From Mycolicibacterium xanthum (GTDB lineage: Bacteria > Actinomycetota > Actinomycetes > Mycobacteriales > Mycobacteriaceae): DNA of 32,000 bases. Positions 1,678 through 6,064 of this stretch are shown piece by piece. Both the position numbers and the translations under genes were made by a program. The stretch covers positions 3,775 through 35,774 of the forward strand of contig NZ_JAIFZS010000057.1 of assembly GCF_019710635.1 (NCBI RefSeq), read 5' to 3'. Under the pieces are notes generated by a model. That model saw only the letters and a list, made by a program, of their open reading frames with translations, was not told the DNA's origin and ran no database searches. Numbering within the stretch: position 1 is the stretch's first letter; each line of letters opens with the position of its first letter.

Positions 1678-2862
1678 ATGAGCGCCCACGATGACCACGA
1701 GTCGTTGTGCGTGCTGCTGGTCGAAGACGATCGGGCCGACGCCATCCTGGTGGAGGAGTTGATCGCCGATTCGGGCGTCGACATGCGGGTCGACTGGGCG
1801 GCGACGATGGCCGATGCGGAACGCGCGCTCGCCGCAACCCGGCCCGACTGCGTCCTGCTGGACCTGCACCTGCACGACACCGTCGGCATCGACGGTCTGA
1901 CCCGCATCGCCGCCAGGGACGCCACACTGCCGATCGTCGTGCTGACCGGCCTGAACGACGAACATTTCGGCGTCTCGGCGGTGGCGTCCGGGGCGCAGGA
2001 CTACCTGGTGAAGGGCCGGGTCGATCCGGAGATGCTGCGCCGCGCGGTGCTCTATGCGATCGAGCGCAAGCGGGCCGAGCTCACGGCGGTCGACCTGCAC
2101 GCCAGCCAGTTGCGGGCGCGGGAGAACGCCCGCCTGGAGCGTGGGCTGCTGCCCTCCCCGCTGCTGCTCGACGATCCCGGCGTCGAGATCGTCACTCAGT
2201 ACCGGCCCAGCCGGGAGAACGCTCTGCTCGGCGGCGATTTCTACGATTTCGTGCAGACCCCGGACCGCACCGTGCACGTGATGATCGGCGATGTCGCCGG
2301 CCACGGCGCCGACGAGGCCGCGCTGGGTGTCGCATTGCGGATCGCCTGGCGGGCGCTGACGTTCGCCGGTCTGCGCGGCTCCGACCGGATGCGGCAGCTC
2401 GAACGGATCCTGCGTGCCGAGCGGGCCGGCAAGGGCATCTTCGCCACCGTCCTGAGTCTGGCGATACCGCCCGACGGGCCGACGATCACCGCGGTGCGGG
2501 CCGGCCATCCCGGCATGCTGCTGCACGGTGGCGGCACCGTCGAGTGGGTGGAGCCGCCGGGCGGTCCCGCGCTGGGGCTGCACGCGGGAGATTGGGCGCC
2601 CCAACAGGTGCCGTTGCCCGAGGGCAAGGGGTTGGTGCTGCTCACCGACGGGCTCTTCGAGGGCCACGTGGGGCGCGGCAACGAGCGGCTCGGCGAACAG
2701 GGATTGCTCGAACTGGCCCGATCGCTGGCTATGCTGCCCGGCCCGCAGTTCGTCGCCGCCCTCATCGACGCCGTCGAGGAGCGCGCCCAGTCGCACGGCG
2801 GGATCGGCGACGACATCGCCGTCGTCCGGGTCGAGCGGGTGCCTCGGGTGGCTCAGCGATGA
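1678..2862 (+). CDS. Response regulator with REC domain fused to a PP2C/SpoIIE-type serine phosphatase (RsbY/RsbU-like)
   Basis: The internal ATG at 1678 of ORF 1123..2862 gives MSAHDDHESLCVLLVEDDRAD... The REC acceptor region is DCVLLDLHL, followed by LPIVVLTG and DYLVKG. PP2C motifs are present: GGDFYDF, IGDVAGHG, LLTDGL, DDIAVV. The stop overlaps the next start (ATGA at 2859-2862). Confidence 0.9.
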   Translation: MSAHDDHESLCVLLVEDDRADAILVEELIADSGVDMRVDWAATMADAERALAATRPDCVLLDLHLHDTVGIDGLTRIAARDATLPIVVLTGLNDEHFGVSAVASGAQDYLVKGRVDPEMLRRAVLYAIERKRAELTAVDLHASQLRARENARLERGLLPSPLLLDDPGVEIVTQYRPSRENALLGGDFYDFVQTPDRTVHVMIGDVAGHGADEAALGVALRIAWRALTFAGLRGSDRMRQLERILRAERAGKGIFATVLSLAIPPDGPTITAVRAGHPGMLLHGGGTVEWVEPPGGPALGLHAGDWAPQQVPLPEGKGLVLLTDGLFEGHVGRGNERLGEQGLLELARSLAMLPGPQFVAALIDAVEERAQSHGGIGDDIAVVRVERVPRVAQR

Positions 2863-4451
2863 GCAGCCCCCGGAGGCGCCAGGTCCGCCAGCTGACCGTG
2901 CAGGGCTGGCAGTACCTGGTGTTCGCGGTGATGGGGGTGGTGGTGCTGGCCGGCGGCACCGCGGTGGCGGTGCTGCTCAACCGCACCGACCAGGTGTCCG
3001 GGCAACTCATCCGCCACATCCAGCCGGCCCGGGTGGCGGCCTACAAACTGCAGGCCGCGCTGCGCGACCAGGAGACCGCCGTGCGGGGCTACCTGATCGC
3101 CGCAGACAAGCGGTTTCTCGAGCCCTACTACGAGGGCCGGCAGGTCGAGCAGGAGGCCTCGGCGGAGATCCGCCAGCTCGAGCAGGATCGGCCCGATCTG
3201 CTCGATGATCTCGATGCCATCGAACTGGCCGCCGGCTCCTGGCGGACGAACTACGCCGATCCGTTGATCGCCGGGGTGGACCCGGGCGATCCGAGCCTGG
3301 TGTCGCCCAGTGCCGCCCAGCAGGGCAAGGTCGAGTTCGACCGCCTGCGCGTGCTGTTCGACGTCCAGAACGAGCACCTCGACGGGGCCAGGACCGACGC
3401 CATCGGCGAGCTCGACCAGATGAGAACCTGGCGCAACGGGGTGCTGCTGGCGATGCTCGGCGCGTTCGTGGTCACGATGCTGTTGCTGGCGGTGCTGCTG
3501 CGTCGGGCGCTGGTACGCCCGCTGGCGGCACTGGCGAAGGCCTGCCGCAGCGTCGCGCAGGGCAACTTCGCCGAACGGATCGTCCCGCAGGGCCCCAGGG
3601 ACATCCGCGCGATCGCCGACGACGTCGAGAACATGCGGCAGCGCATCGTCGAGGAACTCGACGCCTCGCGCGCGGCCGCCGAAGCGCTCGACGTGCACGC
3701 CGAGGAACTGCGGCGGTCCAACGCCGAACTCGAGCAGTTCGCCTACGTCGCGTCACACGACCTGCAGGAACCCCTGCGCAAGGTGGCGTCGTTCTGTCAG
3801 CTGCTGGAGAAGCGGTACGGCGACGAACTCGACGAGCGCGGTCGCGAGTACATCCGCTTCGCCGTCGACGGGGCCAAACGCATGCAGGTGCTCATCAACG
3901 ACCTGCTGACGTTCTCGCGGGTGGGTCGGCTCAACGCCACCGAGGTCGAGGTCGGTCTGGACCGGGCGCTGGACAGTGCGCTGGGCAACCTGGAGACCTC
4001 GATGCAGGAGTCCGGTGCCGTCATCGAGCGACCGGCCGAGGGGCTGCCCGAGGTCAGCGGCGACCCCACCCTGCTGACGATGCTGTGGCAGAACCTGATC
4101 GGGAACGCGGTCAAGTTCCGCCGTGCCGGTATCGCACCGCGCATCCGGATCGAGTGCCGTCCGGAGTCCGACGACAGCGGACCACACTGGGCGCTGTCGG
4201 TGTCGGACAACGGGATCGGGATCGCGCCGGAGTTCACCGACAAGGTGTTCGTCATCTTCCAGCGGCTCCACGGCCGCGACGCCTACGGCGGCACCGGCAT
4301 CGGGCTGGCGCTGTGCAAGAAGATCGTCGAGCATCACGGCGGCACGATCTGGATCGACACCTCGTATACGGATGGAACCCGGTTCCGATTCACGCTGCCT
4401 GCCAGGGCGGATGACTCGGCCGATGCACTCCTGGAAGGATCGGCACCATGA
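2859..4451 (+). CDS. Sensor histidine kinase: TM, CHASE3 extracytoplasmic domain, TM, HAMP, HisKA, HATPase
   Basis: The ATG at 2859 gives [33 protein letters not shown] (TM1). A CHASE3-like segment follows ([34 protein letters not shown]), then TM2 ([20 protein letters not shown]) and HAMP. The H-box is [16 protein letters not shown], the N-box [9 protein letters not shown], G1 DNGIGI and G2 [10 protein letters not shown]. Confidence 0.9.
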   Translation: [530 protein letters not shown]

Positions 4452-4888: not shown

Positions 4889-4909
4889 TCGTCGCCGGTC
4901 CGGCCGGGC

Positions 4910-6064
4910 GTGTGGCACGCTCGGAGCGTGGAGCTGCCGCGTCTCGATCCGGGACTTCCGTACCTGGCCGATGTCGCGCCGTCGGTGCTGGCCGCGATGG
5001 GCGTTGCGGGCTTCGAGCCCCGCATCGAGATCGCCCATGACGTCGCCGGTGCGTGCGTGCTGTTGATCGACGGCCTGGGCGCACAGCTGCTGGACGACCA
5101 CGCCGCGGACGCCCCGGTGCTCGCCGCGCTGGCGCGCCGCACGCTGCAGGTCGGTTTCCCGTCGACCACCGCCGCCGGTCTGGCGGCGGTGGGAACCGGC
5201 TGCCGGTCCGGTGAGCACGGCATGGTCGGGATGGCCTTCCGGCTTCCCGATGTCGGGGTGATCAACGCGCTGCGCTGGCGGCCCCAGCCGTGGGGTGCCG
5301 ACCTGCGCGAGCGGGCCGTCCCCGAATCGGTGCAACCCCGCCCTACGGTCTTCGAGCGGGCCCGGGCCGGCGGTGTGACCGTCAGCGTCGTCTCCGCCGC
5401 GCAGTTCGACGGCTCCGGCCTGACCAGGGCGGTGCTGCGCGGAGGCCGCTTCATCGGCGTGCATGCGCTGGGCGATCTCGCCGCCACCGTGAGCGCCGCG
5501 GTGGCCGGCGGTGGCTTCTGCTACGGCTATCACGCCGATCTGGACCTGGTCGGCCATCTGCACGGACCCGGTTCGCCGGCCTGGCGCATGCAGTTGCGCC
5601 AGGTCGACACGCTGGTGGAGTCGATCGTCGAGCGGCTGCCGGCCGGCGGGTTGCTGGCGGTGGTCGCCGACCACGGCATGGTGCGGATCGACGAGGCGGC
5701 GGCGATCGACCTCGACGCGAGCTCTCCCCTGCAGGACGGGGTGGCCGCCGTGGCCGGGGAGGTGCGTGCCCGGCACGTCTACGTCCGCGACGGCGCGCTC
5801 GGCGACGTGCTGGCCGGGTGGCGGGCCGTTCTCGGCGACCGGGCGTGGGTGTGCACCGGTGACGAGGCGATCGAGGCGGGCTGGTTCGGCGAGCGGGTCG
5901 ACGACGCCGTGCGGCCCCGCATCGGGGATGTGGTGGTGGCTGCCCGCGGGGCCTCGGGGGTGCTGCGCAGGACGGCCGAGCCGATCGAGTCCGCCATGGT
6001 CGGGCAGCACGGTTCGGTGACCGAAGCCGAGCAACGGATCCCGTTGCTGCTCGCGCAACGTTGA
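4910..6064 (+). CDS. Alkaline-phosphatase-superfamily enzyme (type I phosphodiesterase/nucleotide pyrophosphatase or PglZ-like)
   Basis: 384-aa ORF with VLLIDGLGAQLL (metal Asp), FPSTTAAGLAAVGTG (Thr nucleophile region), YHADLDLVGHLHGPGS and AVVADHGM (metal ligands). It starts 21 bp after the REC gene. The start codon is uncertain (GTG at 4910 or GTG at 4928). Confidence 0.75.
   Translation: MWHARSVELPRLDPGLPYLADVAPSVLAAMGVAGFEPRIEIAHDVAGACVLLIDGLGAQLLDDHAADAPVLAALARRTLQVGFPSTTAAGLAAVGTGCRSGEHGMVGMAFRLPDVGVINALRWRPQPWGADLRERAVPESVQPRPTVFERARAGGVTVSVVSAAQFDGSGLTRAVLRGGRFIGVHALGDLAATVSAAVAGGGFCYGYHADLDLVGHLHGPGSPAWRMQLRQVDTLVESIVERLPAGGLLAVVADHGMVRIDEAAAIDLDASSPLQDGVAAVAGEVRARHVYVRDGALGDVLAGWRAVLGDRAWVCTGDEAIEAGWFGERVDDAVRPRIGDVVVAARGASGVLRRTAEPIESAMVGQHGSVTEAEQRIPLLLAQR

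What the first reader, a model, noticed from the sequence alone, without database searches (positions are those of the whole stretch)
1678..6064. Four-gene phosphorelay operon linking a CHASE3 histidine kinase to two phosphatase-type outputs
Seen in the sequence: four co-oriented genes are packed with ATGA start/stop overlaps at 2859-2862 and 4448-4451 and a 21-bp gap at 4889-4909, so they are very likely co-transcribed and translationally coupled. They encode (i) REC fused to an intact PP2C/SpoIIE phosphatase, (ii) a CHASE3-HAMP-HisKA-HATPase sensor kinase, (iii) a REC-only regulator, and (iv) an alkaline-phosphatase-superfamily enzyme with all metal and nucleophile motifs present. The two REC domains share the same beta1-alpha1 pattern (VLLVEDDRADAILVEELI versus VLLIEDDPGDELITREAF), which is consistent with both being fed by the one kinase. 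Established knowledge: in Bacillus cereus, a CHASE3-containing kinase (RsbK) phosphorylates a REC-PP2C protein (RsbY) to drive the RsbV/RsbW/sigma-B partner switch. Inference: this is an RsbK/RsbY-like input module in a mycobacterium, extended by a second branch (REC plus a phosphodiesterase-like enzyme). I do not know of this combination having been characterised.
Basis: partly seen in the sequence, partly recalled or inferred. Interest (0 to 1): 0.75.

Follow-up and report, generated by a model that had tools for sequence, protein, structure and literature searches.

The report
RsfR-RsfS stress-sensing operon plus hitchhiker gene
The first three genes are this mycobacterium's copy of the RsfR-RsfS-receiver operon, already characterised in Mycobacterium smegmatis as the sensor that switches on the stress sigma factor SigF; the fourth, phosphatase-like gene is a neighbour found only in a few close relatives, so the locus is largely ordinary.

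Summary
The four genes and their domains are real. Only the start of gene 4 needs correcting, to 4928. This gives a 39-nt gap, not 21.

Genes 1-3 are REC-PP2C, a CHASE3 histidine kinase and a REC-only protein. They are orthologues of M. smegmatis rsfR-rsfS-MSMEG_6128 (Oh & Oh, JBC 2024). Peptides encoded by that paper's primers match the window proteins collinearly.

The same three-gene set occurs in 73 of 80 related loci across Actinomycetota. Often a convergent rsbW2-rsfB pair follows it directly. In the window that pair lies about 10 kb downstream (15115-15998, minus strand), and the phospho-serine motif of RsfB is conserved.

In M. smegmatis, RsfS phosphorylates RsfR. This lowers RsfR's phosphatase activity on P-RsfB, the opposite polarity to RsbK/RsbY. 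The REC-only protein was not phosphorylated there, and deleting it had no effect.

Gene 4 is an NPP-like alkaline-phosphatase-superfamily enzyme. It abuts the triad in only 3 of 72 informative loci, and it is unlinked from the triad in genomes that carry both. So there is no support for a conserved "second output branch".

One puzzle remains. The REC-only protein is the most conserved of the three (78-95% identity), and it is the class-typical partner for this type of kinase core. Its role is still open.

The parts
1489..1677 (.). Divergent intergenic region between an acyltransferase_3 gene (220-1488, minus strand) and g1. It is the presumed promoter region of the operon.
   Evidence: ORF map and gene calls in L001. 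The simple sigma-70 and SigF-type promoter scans found nothing here, so the promoter is inferred, not shown.
1678..2862 (+). g1: RsfR orthologue, a receiver domain fused to a PP2C/SpoIIE phosphatase (394 aa). The phospho-acceptor is Asp62.
   Evidence: Pfam Response_reg plus SpoIIE. The primer-encoded M. smegmatis peptide DCVLLDLNLPD (D74) matches g1 DCVLLDLHLHD. Closest solved structures are RssB 3EQ2 and the Rv1364c PP2C domain 3KE6. Orthologues are 51-86% identical in 75 loci.
2859..4451 (+). g2: RsfS orthologue, a membrane sensor histidine kinase (530 aa) with the layout TM1-CHASE3-TM2-HAMP-HisKA(H300)-HATPase_c. It has no receiver domain and no GAF domain.
   Evidence: Pfam and hydrophobic segments at about 18-41 and 192-220. 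The M. smegmatis peptides MRLTVQ, RDELLAD|LAVIEKA (insertion after aa 108) and IMVWQN align collinearly with a constant 9-residue offset. The kinase core is closest to 8F71 and to bacteriophytochrome kinases.
4448..4888 (+). g3: MSMEG_6128 orthologue, a stand-alone Rcp1-type receiver protein (146 aa). Its role is unresolved.
   Evidence: Pfam finds Response_reg only. M. smegmatis primer peptides: MTSADE, AIDILL, EFFVQVV, RLPQF and EHNKIK all match. The 366-bp deletion the authors made between AIDILL and EFFVQVV equals the 122 codons that separate AIDVLL and EFFVQVV in g3. PDB matches: 5TE9 at E 7e-49; Rcp1 and RcpA at 1e-35. It is 68-95% identical across 76 loci.
4889..4927 (+). Spacer of 39 nt between g3 and g4. 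It is 1 nt long in the sister species.
   Evidence: Junction sequences of L002, L003, L005 and L083 compared with the window.
4928..6064 (+). g4: a cytoplasmic NPP/PhnA-like enzyme of the alkaline-phosphatase superfamily (378 aa; an alternative GTG start lies at 4910). It is a lineage-specific tail of the operon and its substrate is unknown.
   Evidence: PF01663, E 1.6e-31. NCBI names it 'alkaline phosphatase family protein', 378 aa. The metal ligands and the Thr nucleophile are invariant in 28 orthologues. The AF2 model (pLDDT 74) matches ENPP6, Xac NPP and PhnA at E about 1e-15 and TM 0.55-0.6. There is no hydrophobic N-terminus. It is adjacent to the triad only in L002, L003, L005 and L083/L084.
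15115..15561 (-). RsbW2-like serine kinase (HATPase_c_2), downstream of the STAS gene. It is the presumed kinase that re-phosphorylates RsfB.
   Evidence: Pfam HATPase_c_2, E 1.8e-22. It occupies the same position after rsfB as rsbW2 in M. smegmatis. It is 43-49% identical to the RsbW genes that converge on the triad in L006, L008, L011, L012, L014 and L020. The start codon is inferred.
15606..15998 (-). RsfB orthologue, a STAS anti-sigma-factor antagonist with a conserved phospho-serine (VEFLASAGMGV). It is the presumed substrate of g1.
   Evidence: Pfam STAS. The primer-encoded RsfB peptides ANCTVEERRVGDITVVAVTGTVDMLTAPKLE and VDFLASAGMGV (S63) align collinearly with a constant 12-residue offset. 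The start codon is uncertain.

Best explanation
Genes 1-3 are the Mycobacterium sp. Y57 orthologues of the M. smegmatis rsfR-rsfS-MSMEG_6128 operon. [quoted passage not shown]

Mechanism, by orthology:
1. RsfS (g2) is a membrane kinase with an extracytoplasmic CHASE3 domain.
2. While respiration is normal, RsfS phosphorylates Asp62 of RsfR (g1). This holds the PP2C domain of RsfR in a low-activity state.
3. Kinase output falls when the electron-transport chain is inhibited, in hypoxia, at low pH, at high ionic strength or when energy is limiting.
4. Unphosphorylated RsfR then dephosphorylates the phospho-serine of RsfB (STAS, 15606-15998).
5. RsfB sequesters the anti-SigF factor, and SigF is released.
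6. The RsbW2-like kinase next to rsfB resets RsfB by phosphorylating it again.

The REC-only protein (g3) is a conserved accessory member of the operon. Its role is unknown. My best guess is a modulator or phosphate sink of the kinase rather than an independent output.

Gene 4 is an NPP-like phosphodiesterase/phosphatase of unknown substrate. In one small Mycolicibacterium clade it came to lie directly behind g3 and is probably co-transcribed there. It is not a general component of the pathway.

What is shown here: gene order, domains, motifs, orthology and distribution. What is inferred from M. smegmatis experiments: every phosphorylation step and its polarity.
For: - Domains and motifs.
- Published characterisation of RsfSR.
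- Collinear matches of more than 15 primer-encoded M. smegmatis peptides to g1, g2, g3 and the STAS protein, with constant offsets. This includes the identical 122-codon spacing in g3, and D74 of RsfR and S63 of RsfB falling on the corresponding residues.
- The triad g1-g2-g3 is found in 73 of 80 loci from Mycobacteriaceae, Nocardia, Rhodococcus/Prescottella, Streptomyces, Nocardioides and Microtetraspora.
- A convergent RsbW-STAS pair lies directly after g3 in L006, L008, L011, L012, L014 and L020, as in M. smegmatis. There the 3' ends of rsbW2 and MSMEG_6128 overlap.
- M. duvalii has the window's layout, including the RsbW gene about 10 kb downstream.
- g4 is adjacent in 3, nearby in 3 and absent in 66 of 72 informative loci.
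- g4 orthologues of 72% identity lie on other contigs, behind MerR/TOBE and solute-binding-protein genes, in M. rhodesiae JS60 and M. vinylchloridicum.
Against: - The M. smegmatis locus itself was not retrieved. It was not among the 80 loci kept. Orthology therefore rests on primer-encoded fragments plus synteny, not on full-length alignment or a phylogeny.
- rsfB-rsbW2 is about 10 kb from the triad here rather than adjacent. A second STAS substrate elsewhere in the genome cannot be excluded.
- In the sister species g4 starts 1 nt after the g3 stop. That looks like translational coupling and could mean a real, clade-specific functional link.
- No transcript or biochemical data exist for this organism.
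Confidence: 0.85

Rival explanations
1. Branched phosphorelay. One CHASE3 kinase feeds two receivers. One receiver controls the PP2C branch. The REC-only protein controls the alkaline-phosphatase-like enzyme as a second output.
For: - g3 has every residue needed for phosphorylation.
- g3 overlaps the kinase gene by 4 bp.
- g4 follows g3 by 1 nt in L002, L003, L005 and L083, and by 39 nt in the window. This suggests co-transcription and coupling in this clade.
- The kinase core belongs to the phytochrome-kinase class and g3 to the matching Rcp1 receiver class.
Against: - g4 is absent next to the triad in 66 of 72 loci and is unlinked in genomes that carry both.
- No other conserved fourth gene follows g3.
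- In M. smegmatis the kinase did not phosphorylate MSMEG_6128 in vitro, and its deletion left the SigF reporter unchanged.
- The two REC domains share only 29% identity.
Confidence: 0.08
2. g3 is a genuine phospho-partner of RsfS but has no output of its own. It would be a phosphate sink or competitor, or the unfused equivalent of the inhibitory C-terminal receiver domain of B. cereus RsbK. Either way it would tune how much phosphate reaches RsfR. This reading is compatible with the best explanation for genes 1 and 2.
For: - g3 is retained in 73 of 80 loci and is the most conserved member: median 88% identity in Mycobacteriaceae and 82% elsewhere, against 74/56% for g1 and 64/57% for g2.
- The DHp helix of g2 and the alpha1 contact positions of g3 are both invariant.
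- The transmitter class and the receiver class match known cognate pairs. For example, DrBphP and its regulator in 8AVV hit both g2 and g3.
- The fused receiver of RsbK is inhibitory, and it needs the N-terminal sensor part of the kinase to interact. The M. smegmatis assay used a kinase lacking the sensor part, and it relied on Phos-tag detection, which could miss a short-lived acyl phosphate (the lability point is inference).
Against: - The in-vitro transfer was negative, and the MSMEG_6128 deletion had no reporter phenotype in wild-type or aa3-oxidase mutant backgrounds.
- No true kinase-g3 fusions were found. The apparent ones are frameshift artefacts.
- Invariant positions give no covariation signal.
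Confidence: 0.3
3. The window's genes are paralogues, not orthologues, of RsfR/RsfS. They would control a different STAS/partner-switching circuit or a non-sigma target.
For: - rsfB-rsbW2 is not adjacent here.
- CHASE3 kinase paralogues without partners exist in Nocardia (L061, L070).
- Other STAS genes occur near katG in relatives.
Against: - The match to the M. smegmatis fragments is collinear in all three proteins.
- The same triad is directly convergent with RsbW-STAS in other fast-growing mycobacteria.
- The window's STAS carries RsfB-specific sequence: 15 of 31 aligned N-terminal residues are identical, and the S63 motif matches at 10 of 11 positions.
Confidence: 0.05

Closest known systems
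RsfS/RsfR two-component system of Mycobacterium smegmatis (MSMEG_6130/6131), with MSMEG_6128 and rsfB-rsbW2 (Oh & Oh, J Biol Chem 2024, PMC10950880; Oh et al. 2020, PMC7693655)
   Same: Gene order is the same: REC-PP2C, then CHASE3-HAMP-HisKA-HATPase kinase, then a roughly 147-aa receiver, with overlapping stop and start codons. Sequence is collinear at every primer-encoded fragment. The phospho-Asp of RsfR and the phospho-Ser of RsfB are conserved. An rsfB-rsbW2 pair is present on the opposite strand.
   Different: rsfB-rsbW2 is about 10 kb away instead of overlapping the 3' end of the receiver gene. An extra alkaline-phosphatase-family gene is appended to the operon. No experiments exist for this organism. 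The papers describe MSMEG_6128 as carrying a DNA-binding domain, but its size and the window orthologue indicate a receiver domain only.
RsbK/RsbY (with RsbM) of Bacillus cereus, the sigma-B input module
   Same: A CHASE3-containing histidine kinase controls a REC-PP2C phosphatase that acts on a STAS anti-anti-sigma factor.
   Different: RsbK is a hybrid kinase with a GAF domain and a fused inhibitory receiver, and it is methylated by RsbM. Phosphorylation activates RsbY. Here the kinase has no GAF domain and no fused receiver, no CheR-type methyltransferase gene was found in the window, and in the orthologous system phosphorylation inhibits the phosphatase. The separate g3 receiver might correspond to RsbK's fused receiver, but this is untested.
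Cph1-Rcp1 and bacteriophytochrome kinase/response-regulator pairs (e.g. PDB 1I3C, 1K68, 6XVU, 8AVV)
   Same: The kinase core of g2 and the whole of g3 find these proteins as close solved relatives. For g2 only 8F71 ranks higher; for g3 only 5TE9 does. As in those pairs, a stand-alone receiver is encoded right after its kinase.
   Different: The sensor is CHASE3 plus HAMP, not a phytochrome photosensory module. A second receiver (REC-PP2C) is the demonstrated substrate in M. smegmatis.
Nucleotide pyrophosphatase/phosphodiesterases and phosphonoacetate hydrolase (Xac NPP 2GSN, ENPP6 5EGH, PhnA 1EI6)
   Same: g4 has the PF01663 domain, the two-metal ligand set, the Thr nucleophile and the fold.
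   Different: Identity is only 13-21%. g4 has no signal peptide or membrane anchor, so it is cytoplasmic. The model is weak around residues 78-130, next to the nucleophile. The substrate is unknown.

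Membership tests
RsfS/RsfR input module of the mycobacterial SigF partner switch | A REC-PP2C protein with a phospho-acceptor Asp in the context DCVLLDL | tested here: met
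   Pfam Response_reg plus SpoIIE. g1 has D62 in DCVLLDLHLHD, against the M. smegmatis D74 primer peptide DCVLLDLNLPD.
RsfS/RsfR input module of the mycobacterial SigF partner switch | A non-hybrid kinase with CHASE3 between two transmembrane helices, followed by HAMP, HisKA and HATPase_c | tested here: met
   Collinear with the RsfS primer peptides at a 9-residue offset.
RsfS/RsfR input module of the mycobacterial SigF partner switch | Operon order rsfR-rsfS-receiver (MSMEG_6128) | tested here: met
   4-bp overlaps at both junctions. MSMEG_6128 fragments match g3 with identical spacing. The triad is in 73 of 80 loci.
RsfS/RsfR input module of the mycobacterial SigF partner switch | The rsfB-rsbW2 operon lies next to the triad and converges on it | tested here: inconclusive
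   The pair is present with the right orientation and RsfB-specific sequence, but about 10 kb downstream. It is adjacent in L006, L008, L011, L012, L014 and L020. M. duvalii has the window's spaced layout.
RsfS/RsfR input module of the mycobacterial SigF partner switch | RsfS phosphorylates RsfR, and this lowers RsfR's phosphatase activity on P-RsfB | not testable with these tools
   Known only from M. smegmatis experiments.
RsbK/RsbY module of Bacillus cereus | A hybrid kinase with a C-terminal receiver domain | tested here: not met
   g2 ends after HATPase_c at residue 516 of 530. The receiver is a separate gene in another reading frame.
RsbK/RsbY module of Bacillus cereus | A GAF domain in the kinase and an adjacent RsbM methyltransferase gene | tested here: not met
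   No GAF hit in g2. No CheR-type methyltransferase among the window genes scanned.
RsbK/RsbY module of Bacillus cereus | A REC-PP2C partner acting on a STAS protein | tested here: met
   The domains of g1 and the STAS gene in the window. The activity itself is not testable here.
Rcp1-type single-domain response regulators | A stand-alone receiver of about 145-150 aa with no output domain, the D-D-D-T-K set, and close similarity to Rcp1/RcpA | tested here: met
   Pfam finds REC only. D15/D16/D67/T97/K119. 5TE9 at E 7e-49; Rcp1 and RcpA at about 1e-35 over residues 10-144.
Rcp1-type single-domain response regulators | Phosphorylated by the kinase encoded directly upstream | not testable with these tools
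   The class of the g2 transmitter fits, but the only experiment on the orthologue, in M. smegmatis, was negative.
NPP / alkaline-phosphatase superfamily (PF01663) | Domain match, bimetal ligands and a Thr/Ser nucleophile | tested here: met
   PF01663 at 110.6 bits against a cutoff of 23. D48, T80/T81, D206, H210, D248, H249 and H361 are invariant. Alignment to Xac NPP.
NPP / alkaline-phosphatase superfamily (PF01663) | The NPP-like fold | tested here: met
   AF2 pLDDT 74.4, pTM 0.76. Foldseek matches ENPP6, Xac NPP and PhnA at E 2e-15 to 4e-13 and TM 0.52-0.59. Residues 78-130 have low confidence.
NPP / alkaline-phosphatase superfamily (PF01663) | Secreted or membrane-anchored, as classical NPPs are | tested here: not met
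   No hydrophobic N-terminal segment.

The most novel reading that the evidence does not exclude
The highly conserved REC-only protein is a real second phospho-partner of RsfS. The pair would be of the Cph1/Rcp1 class, or the unfused counterpart of RsbK's inhibitory receiver. It would act as a phosphate sink or allosteric brake that sets the sensitivity of the SigF switch. The negative M. smegmatis result would then reflect the truncated kinase and a labile acyl phosphate. In the Y57/vaccae/iranicum/duvalii clade, this receiver would also have been translationally coupled to a cytoplasmic NPP-like enzyme, giving a clade-specific enzymatic output of the same sensor.
Probability: 0.12. Interest if true: 0.55.

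Novelty: new member of a known kind. Interest (0 to 1): 0.25.

Why it matters
The locus shows that the RsfR-RsfS-receiver triad, studied so far only in M. smegmatis, is a widespread and tightly conserved actinobacterial module. It reaches Mycobacteriaceae, Nocardia, Rhodococcus, Streptomyces and Nocardioides, and it is often physically tied to a STAS/RsbW pair.

The locus also flags two small corrections to the literature. First, MSMEG_6128 is a single-domain Rcp1-type receiver, not a DNA-binding regulator. Second, it is the most conserved member of the operon even though it has no known role.

That makes the receiver the obvious next target for anyone studying how mycobacteria couple respiration to SigF. 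The phosphatase-like fourth gene should not be treated as part of the pathway without direct evidence.

Tried and rejected
1. Retrieving the M. smegmatis locus. I used the primer tables of the two Oh papers as sequence evidence instead.
2. Covariation between the kinase DHp helix and the alpha1 helix of either receiver. All contact positions are invariant in 74 loci, so there is no signal either way.
3. Rosetta-stone fusions of the kinase with g3. The candidates (P0241, and the 224-244-aa HATPase_c+REC proteins) are artefacts. P0241 is a frameshift artefact: half a HATPase_c domain, then out-of-frame sequence, then g3. The others probably are too, but were not inspected.
4. A conserved alternative fourth gene after g3. 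Clustering of downstream ORFs found only STAS, RsbW-like and lineage-specific genes.
5. Shared flanks beyond rsfB (HAD, NMO, MFS), to prove that the 10-kb block is an insertion. These flanks are not shared with loci where rsfB is adjacent, so the direction of the rearrangement stays open.
6. Promoter and terminator scans, and a SigF-consensus search. Nothing useful was found inside or upstream of the operon.
7. NCBIfam. It gave only generic sub-threshold hits for all four proteins.
8. A taxonomy look-up of 'Mycobacterium sp. Y57' returned nothing.
9. Literature on g3 orthologues or on Streptomyces versions of the triad. No papers exist beyond the two Oh studies.

Full report
**1. Observation**

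The window carries four co-oriented + strand genes. Their coordinates are:
- g1: 1678-2862.
- g2: 2859-4451.
- g3: 4448-4888.
- g4: ends at 6064.

The ATGA overlaps at 2859-2862 and 4448-4451 are visible in the sequence.

Pfam hits are all well above the gathering scores:
- g1: Response_reg plus SpoIIE.
- g2: CHASE3, HAMP, HisKA and HATPase_c.
- g3: Response_reg only.
- g4: Phosphodiest (PF01663) over its full length.

g2 has two hydrophobic segments that bracket CHASE3. The other three proteins have none.

The catalytic residues are intact:
- g1: receiver residues D17/D18/D62/T90/K112, and the four PP2C aspartate motifs.
- g2: H300.
- g3: D15/D16/D67/T97/K119.
- g4: D48, T80/T81, D206/H210, D248/H249 and H361.

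One coordinate needs correcting. The NCBI and Logan gene calls for g4 are 378 aa. In four sister loci g4 begins one nucleotide after the g3 stop, with the N-terminus M/V-E/D-L-P-R/Q-P-D-P. In the window this corresponds to VELPRLDP at GTG 4928. The spacer is therefore 39 nt, not 21.

The g4 protein is 100% identical to an 'alkaline phosphatase family protein' that NCBI names from Mycobacterium sp. Y57. The closest species representatives are Mycolicibacterium iranicum, M. vaccae and M. duvalii.

**2. What the first three genes are**

A literature search on CHASE3, RsbK and RsbY found Oh & Oh 2024 (PMC10950880). That paper describes three M. smegmatis genes that form a putative operon:
- MSMEG_6131 (RsfR), a REC-PP2C protein.
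- MSMEG_6130 (RsfS), a CHASE3 kinase.
- MSMEG_6128, a receiver protein.

The operon converges on rsfB (MSMEG_6127) and rsbW2 (MSMEG_6129).

I could not fetch the M. smegmatis DNA, so I translated the primers in the supplementary tables of that paper and of Oh et al. 2020. Every fragment matches the window proteins collinearly:
- RsfR: DCVLLDLNLPD (D74) against g1 DCVLLDLHLHD (D62). The fragments LLLLTD and DIAVI also match.
- RsfS: MRLTVQ against g2 RQLTVQ. RDELLAD|LAVIEKA (the insertion site after residue 108) lines up with g2 RPDLLDD(117)|LDAIELA, a constant 9-residue offset. IMVWQN matches TMLWQN.
- MSMEG_6128: MTSADE, AIDILL, EHNKIK, EFFVQVV and RLPQF against g3 MTPAER, AIDVLL, EHNKIK, EFFVQVV and RLPQI.
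- The authors' 366-bp in-frame deletion between AIDILL and EFFVQVV equals exactly the 122 codons that separate these motifs in g3.

The cloned MSMEG_6128 fragment is 0.471 kb including six His codons, which gives about 148 aa. It is therefore a receiver-only protein like g3. The papers nevertheless state that it carries a DNA-binding domain.

**3. The substrate pair**

Primer-encoded RsfB fragments align to the STAS protein with a constant 12-residue offset:
- ANCTVEERRVGDITVVAVTGTVDMLTAPKLE aligns to SNCVVTERWVDRVAVVSVAGVVDMLTSPQLE.
- VDFLASAGMGV, which contains Ser63, aligns to VEFLASAGMGV.

The window therefore encodes RsfB with its phospho-serine, plus an RsbW2-like kinase, about 10 kb downstream of g3 and on the opposite strand. 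The orientation is the same as in M. smegmatis.

**4. Conservation**

A scan of species-representative genomes with g2 returned 80 loci:
- Mycobacteriaceae at 62-76% identity.
- Streptomyces, Nocardia, Rhodococcus/Prescottella, Nocardioides and Microtetraspora at 52-61%.

tblastn with the window proteins finds the ordered triad g1-g2-g3 in 73 of the 80 loci.

A convergent RsbW-STAS pair sits directly behind g3 in L006, L008, L011 (M. porcinum), L012 (M. frederiksbergense), L014 and L020. STAS and/or RsbW genes follow g3 in many Nocardia loci. In L043 the pair lies upstream.

g3 is the most conserved member:

| Protein | Median identity in Mycobacteriaceae | Median identity in other Actinomycetota |
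|---|---|---|
| g1 | 74% | 56% |
| g2 | 64% | 57% |
| g3 | 88% | 82% |

**5. Gene 4 is not a conserved member**

72 loci have g3 and at least 1.5 kb of downstream sequence. Among them:
- g4 is adjacent in 3 (M. iranicum, M. vaccae and one MAG).
- g4 lies 2.8-6.4 kb away in 3. In L010 and L026 it sits beside NlpC/P60 and/or YaaA genes.
- g4 is absent in 66, where a median of 9.5 kb of flank was inspected.

M. duvalii shares the window's layout.

M. rhodesiae JS60 and M. vinylchloridicum each have a g4 orthologue of 72% identity and also a triad, but on different contigs. There g4 follows MerR/TOBE and solute-binding-protein genes near katG and YaaA. No other conserved fourth gene follows g3.

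g4 thus belongs to a local katG-YaaA neighbourhood. In one Mycolicibacterium sub-clade it came to abut the triad. The 1-nt junction there makes co-transcription likely, and it leaves a clade-specific functional link possible but unsupported.

Structurally g4 is a divergent, cytoplasmic enzyme of the NPP/PhnA type:
- Its best sequence match among solved structures is Xac NPP, at E 5e-6.
- The AF2 model has pLDDT 74 and pTM 0.76, and is weak at residues 78-130.
- Foldseek matches ENPP6, Xac NPP and PhnA at E about 1e-15 and TM 0.52-0.59.

**6. Mechanism**

All steps below are inferred by orthology from the M. smegmatis work. RsfS phosphorylates RsfR on the conserved Asp, and this reduces RsfR's phosphatase activity on P-RsfB. 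[quoted passage not shown] The authors' model is that kinase output falls, unphosphorylated RsfR dephosphorylates RsfB, RsfB antagonises the anti-SigF factor RsbW1, and SigF is released. RsbW2 re-phosphorylates RsfB.

The polarity is opposite to RsbK/RsbY. RsfS also lacks the GAF domain, the fused receiver and the RsbM partner of RsbK. I found no methyltransferase of that kind in the window.

**7. The open point: g3**

In M. smegmatis a truncated RsfS did not phosphorylate MSMEG_6128, and deleting the gene did not change the reporter. The beta1-alpha1 similarity of the two receivers carries no weight, because the domains are only 29% identical.

However, several observations keep the question open:
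- After 5TE9 (E 7e-49), g3's closest solved relatives are the receivers that partner phytochrome kinases: Rcp1, RcpA/B, the DrBphP regulator, 5BRJ and 5IC5.
- The g2 kinase core is far closer to bacteriophytochrome kinases (E 1e-37 to 1e-38) and to 8F71 (E 4.5e-48) than to generic kinases such as HK853 (E 1.6e-25). Kinase class and receiver class therefore match a known cognate pairing.
- In B. cereus the fused receiver of RsbK is inhibitory, and it needs the sensor part of the kinase to interact.

A sink or brake role for g3 therefore remains plausible, at a probability of about 0.3.

Two tests gave no further support. Covariation analysis was uninformative because all contact positions are invariant. 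The apparent kinase-g3 fusions in public protein sets do not help either: the one examined, P0241, is a frameshift artefact.

**8. Verdict**

But the module has already been characterised as RsfSR. It works with inverted polarity, and the 'second phosphatase-type output' is a lineage-specific neighbour.

Novelty: a new member of a known kind, with a clade-specific operon extension. Interest is low to moderate, at 0.25. The main residual value is the unexplained, extremely conserved single-domain receiver.

Noticed in passing
window 8418-9002 and 9467-9784 (+): Two separate Amidase (PF01425) fragments of 194 and 105 aa were called in the identical Logan contig. This looks like a disrupted amidase pseudogene.
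   Followed up: no
window 4448-4888 (g3) versus the literature on MSMEG_6128: Both Oh papers describe MSMEG_6128 as a receiver plus a helix-turn-helix DNA-binding domain. Their own cloning data give about 148 aa. The window orthologue matches single-domain Rcp1-type regulators end to end, so there is no room for an output domain.
   Followed up: yes
L014:5092-5517 (Mycolicibacterium sp. CBMA 226): A second copy of the g3-type receiver (85% identical to g3) lies about 3.3 kb upstream of that genome's own triad.
   Followed up: no
P0241; also P0012, P0032, P0043, P0081 and P0089: Public protein sets contain 'kinase C-terminus + g3' fusion proteins. P0241 has half a HATPase_c domain, then out-of-frame sequence, then g3. 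It is an indel or frameshift artefact at the 4-bp gene overlap, not a real hybrid kinase. The other five were not inspected individually.
   Followed up: partly
window 2859-4451, residues 294-320 of g2: The DHp helix [27 protein letters not shown] is essentially invariant in 74 loci spanning several actinobacterial orders. The kinase as a whole is only 52-76% identical.
   Followed up: partly
whole window: The SigF-type promoter consensus GTTT-N14-18-GGGWA does not occur anywhere in the 32 kb. There is thus no sign that the operon or rsfB-rsbW2 is itself under SigF control.
   Followed up: partly
window 22832-24331 (+) and 29149-30228 (-): A cytochrome P450 gene and a PLP-dependent (PALP) enzyme gene lie beyond rsfB. 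From memory, this resembles the M. tuberculosis rsfB (Rv3687c) neighbourhood with cyp137 and Rv3684. Not tested.
   Followed up: no
L082:6826-7257 and L085:6829-7260: In M. rhodesiae and M. vinylchloridicum a different 143-aa STAS gene lies 2.7 kb upstream of the g4 orthologue in the katG region. Its relation to the partner-switching network is unknown.
   Followed up: no
L083:11207-12736 (M. duvalii): A DUF222 gene on the minus strand is inserted between g4 and the NlpC/P60 gene. The window has no equivalent. This is a small sign that the block is rearrangement-prone.
   Followed up: no
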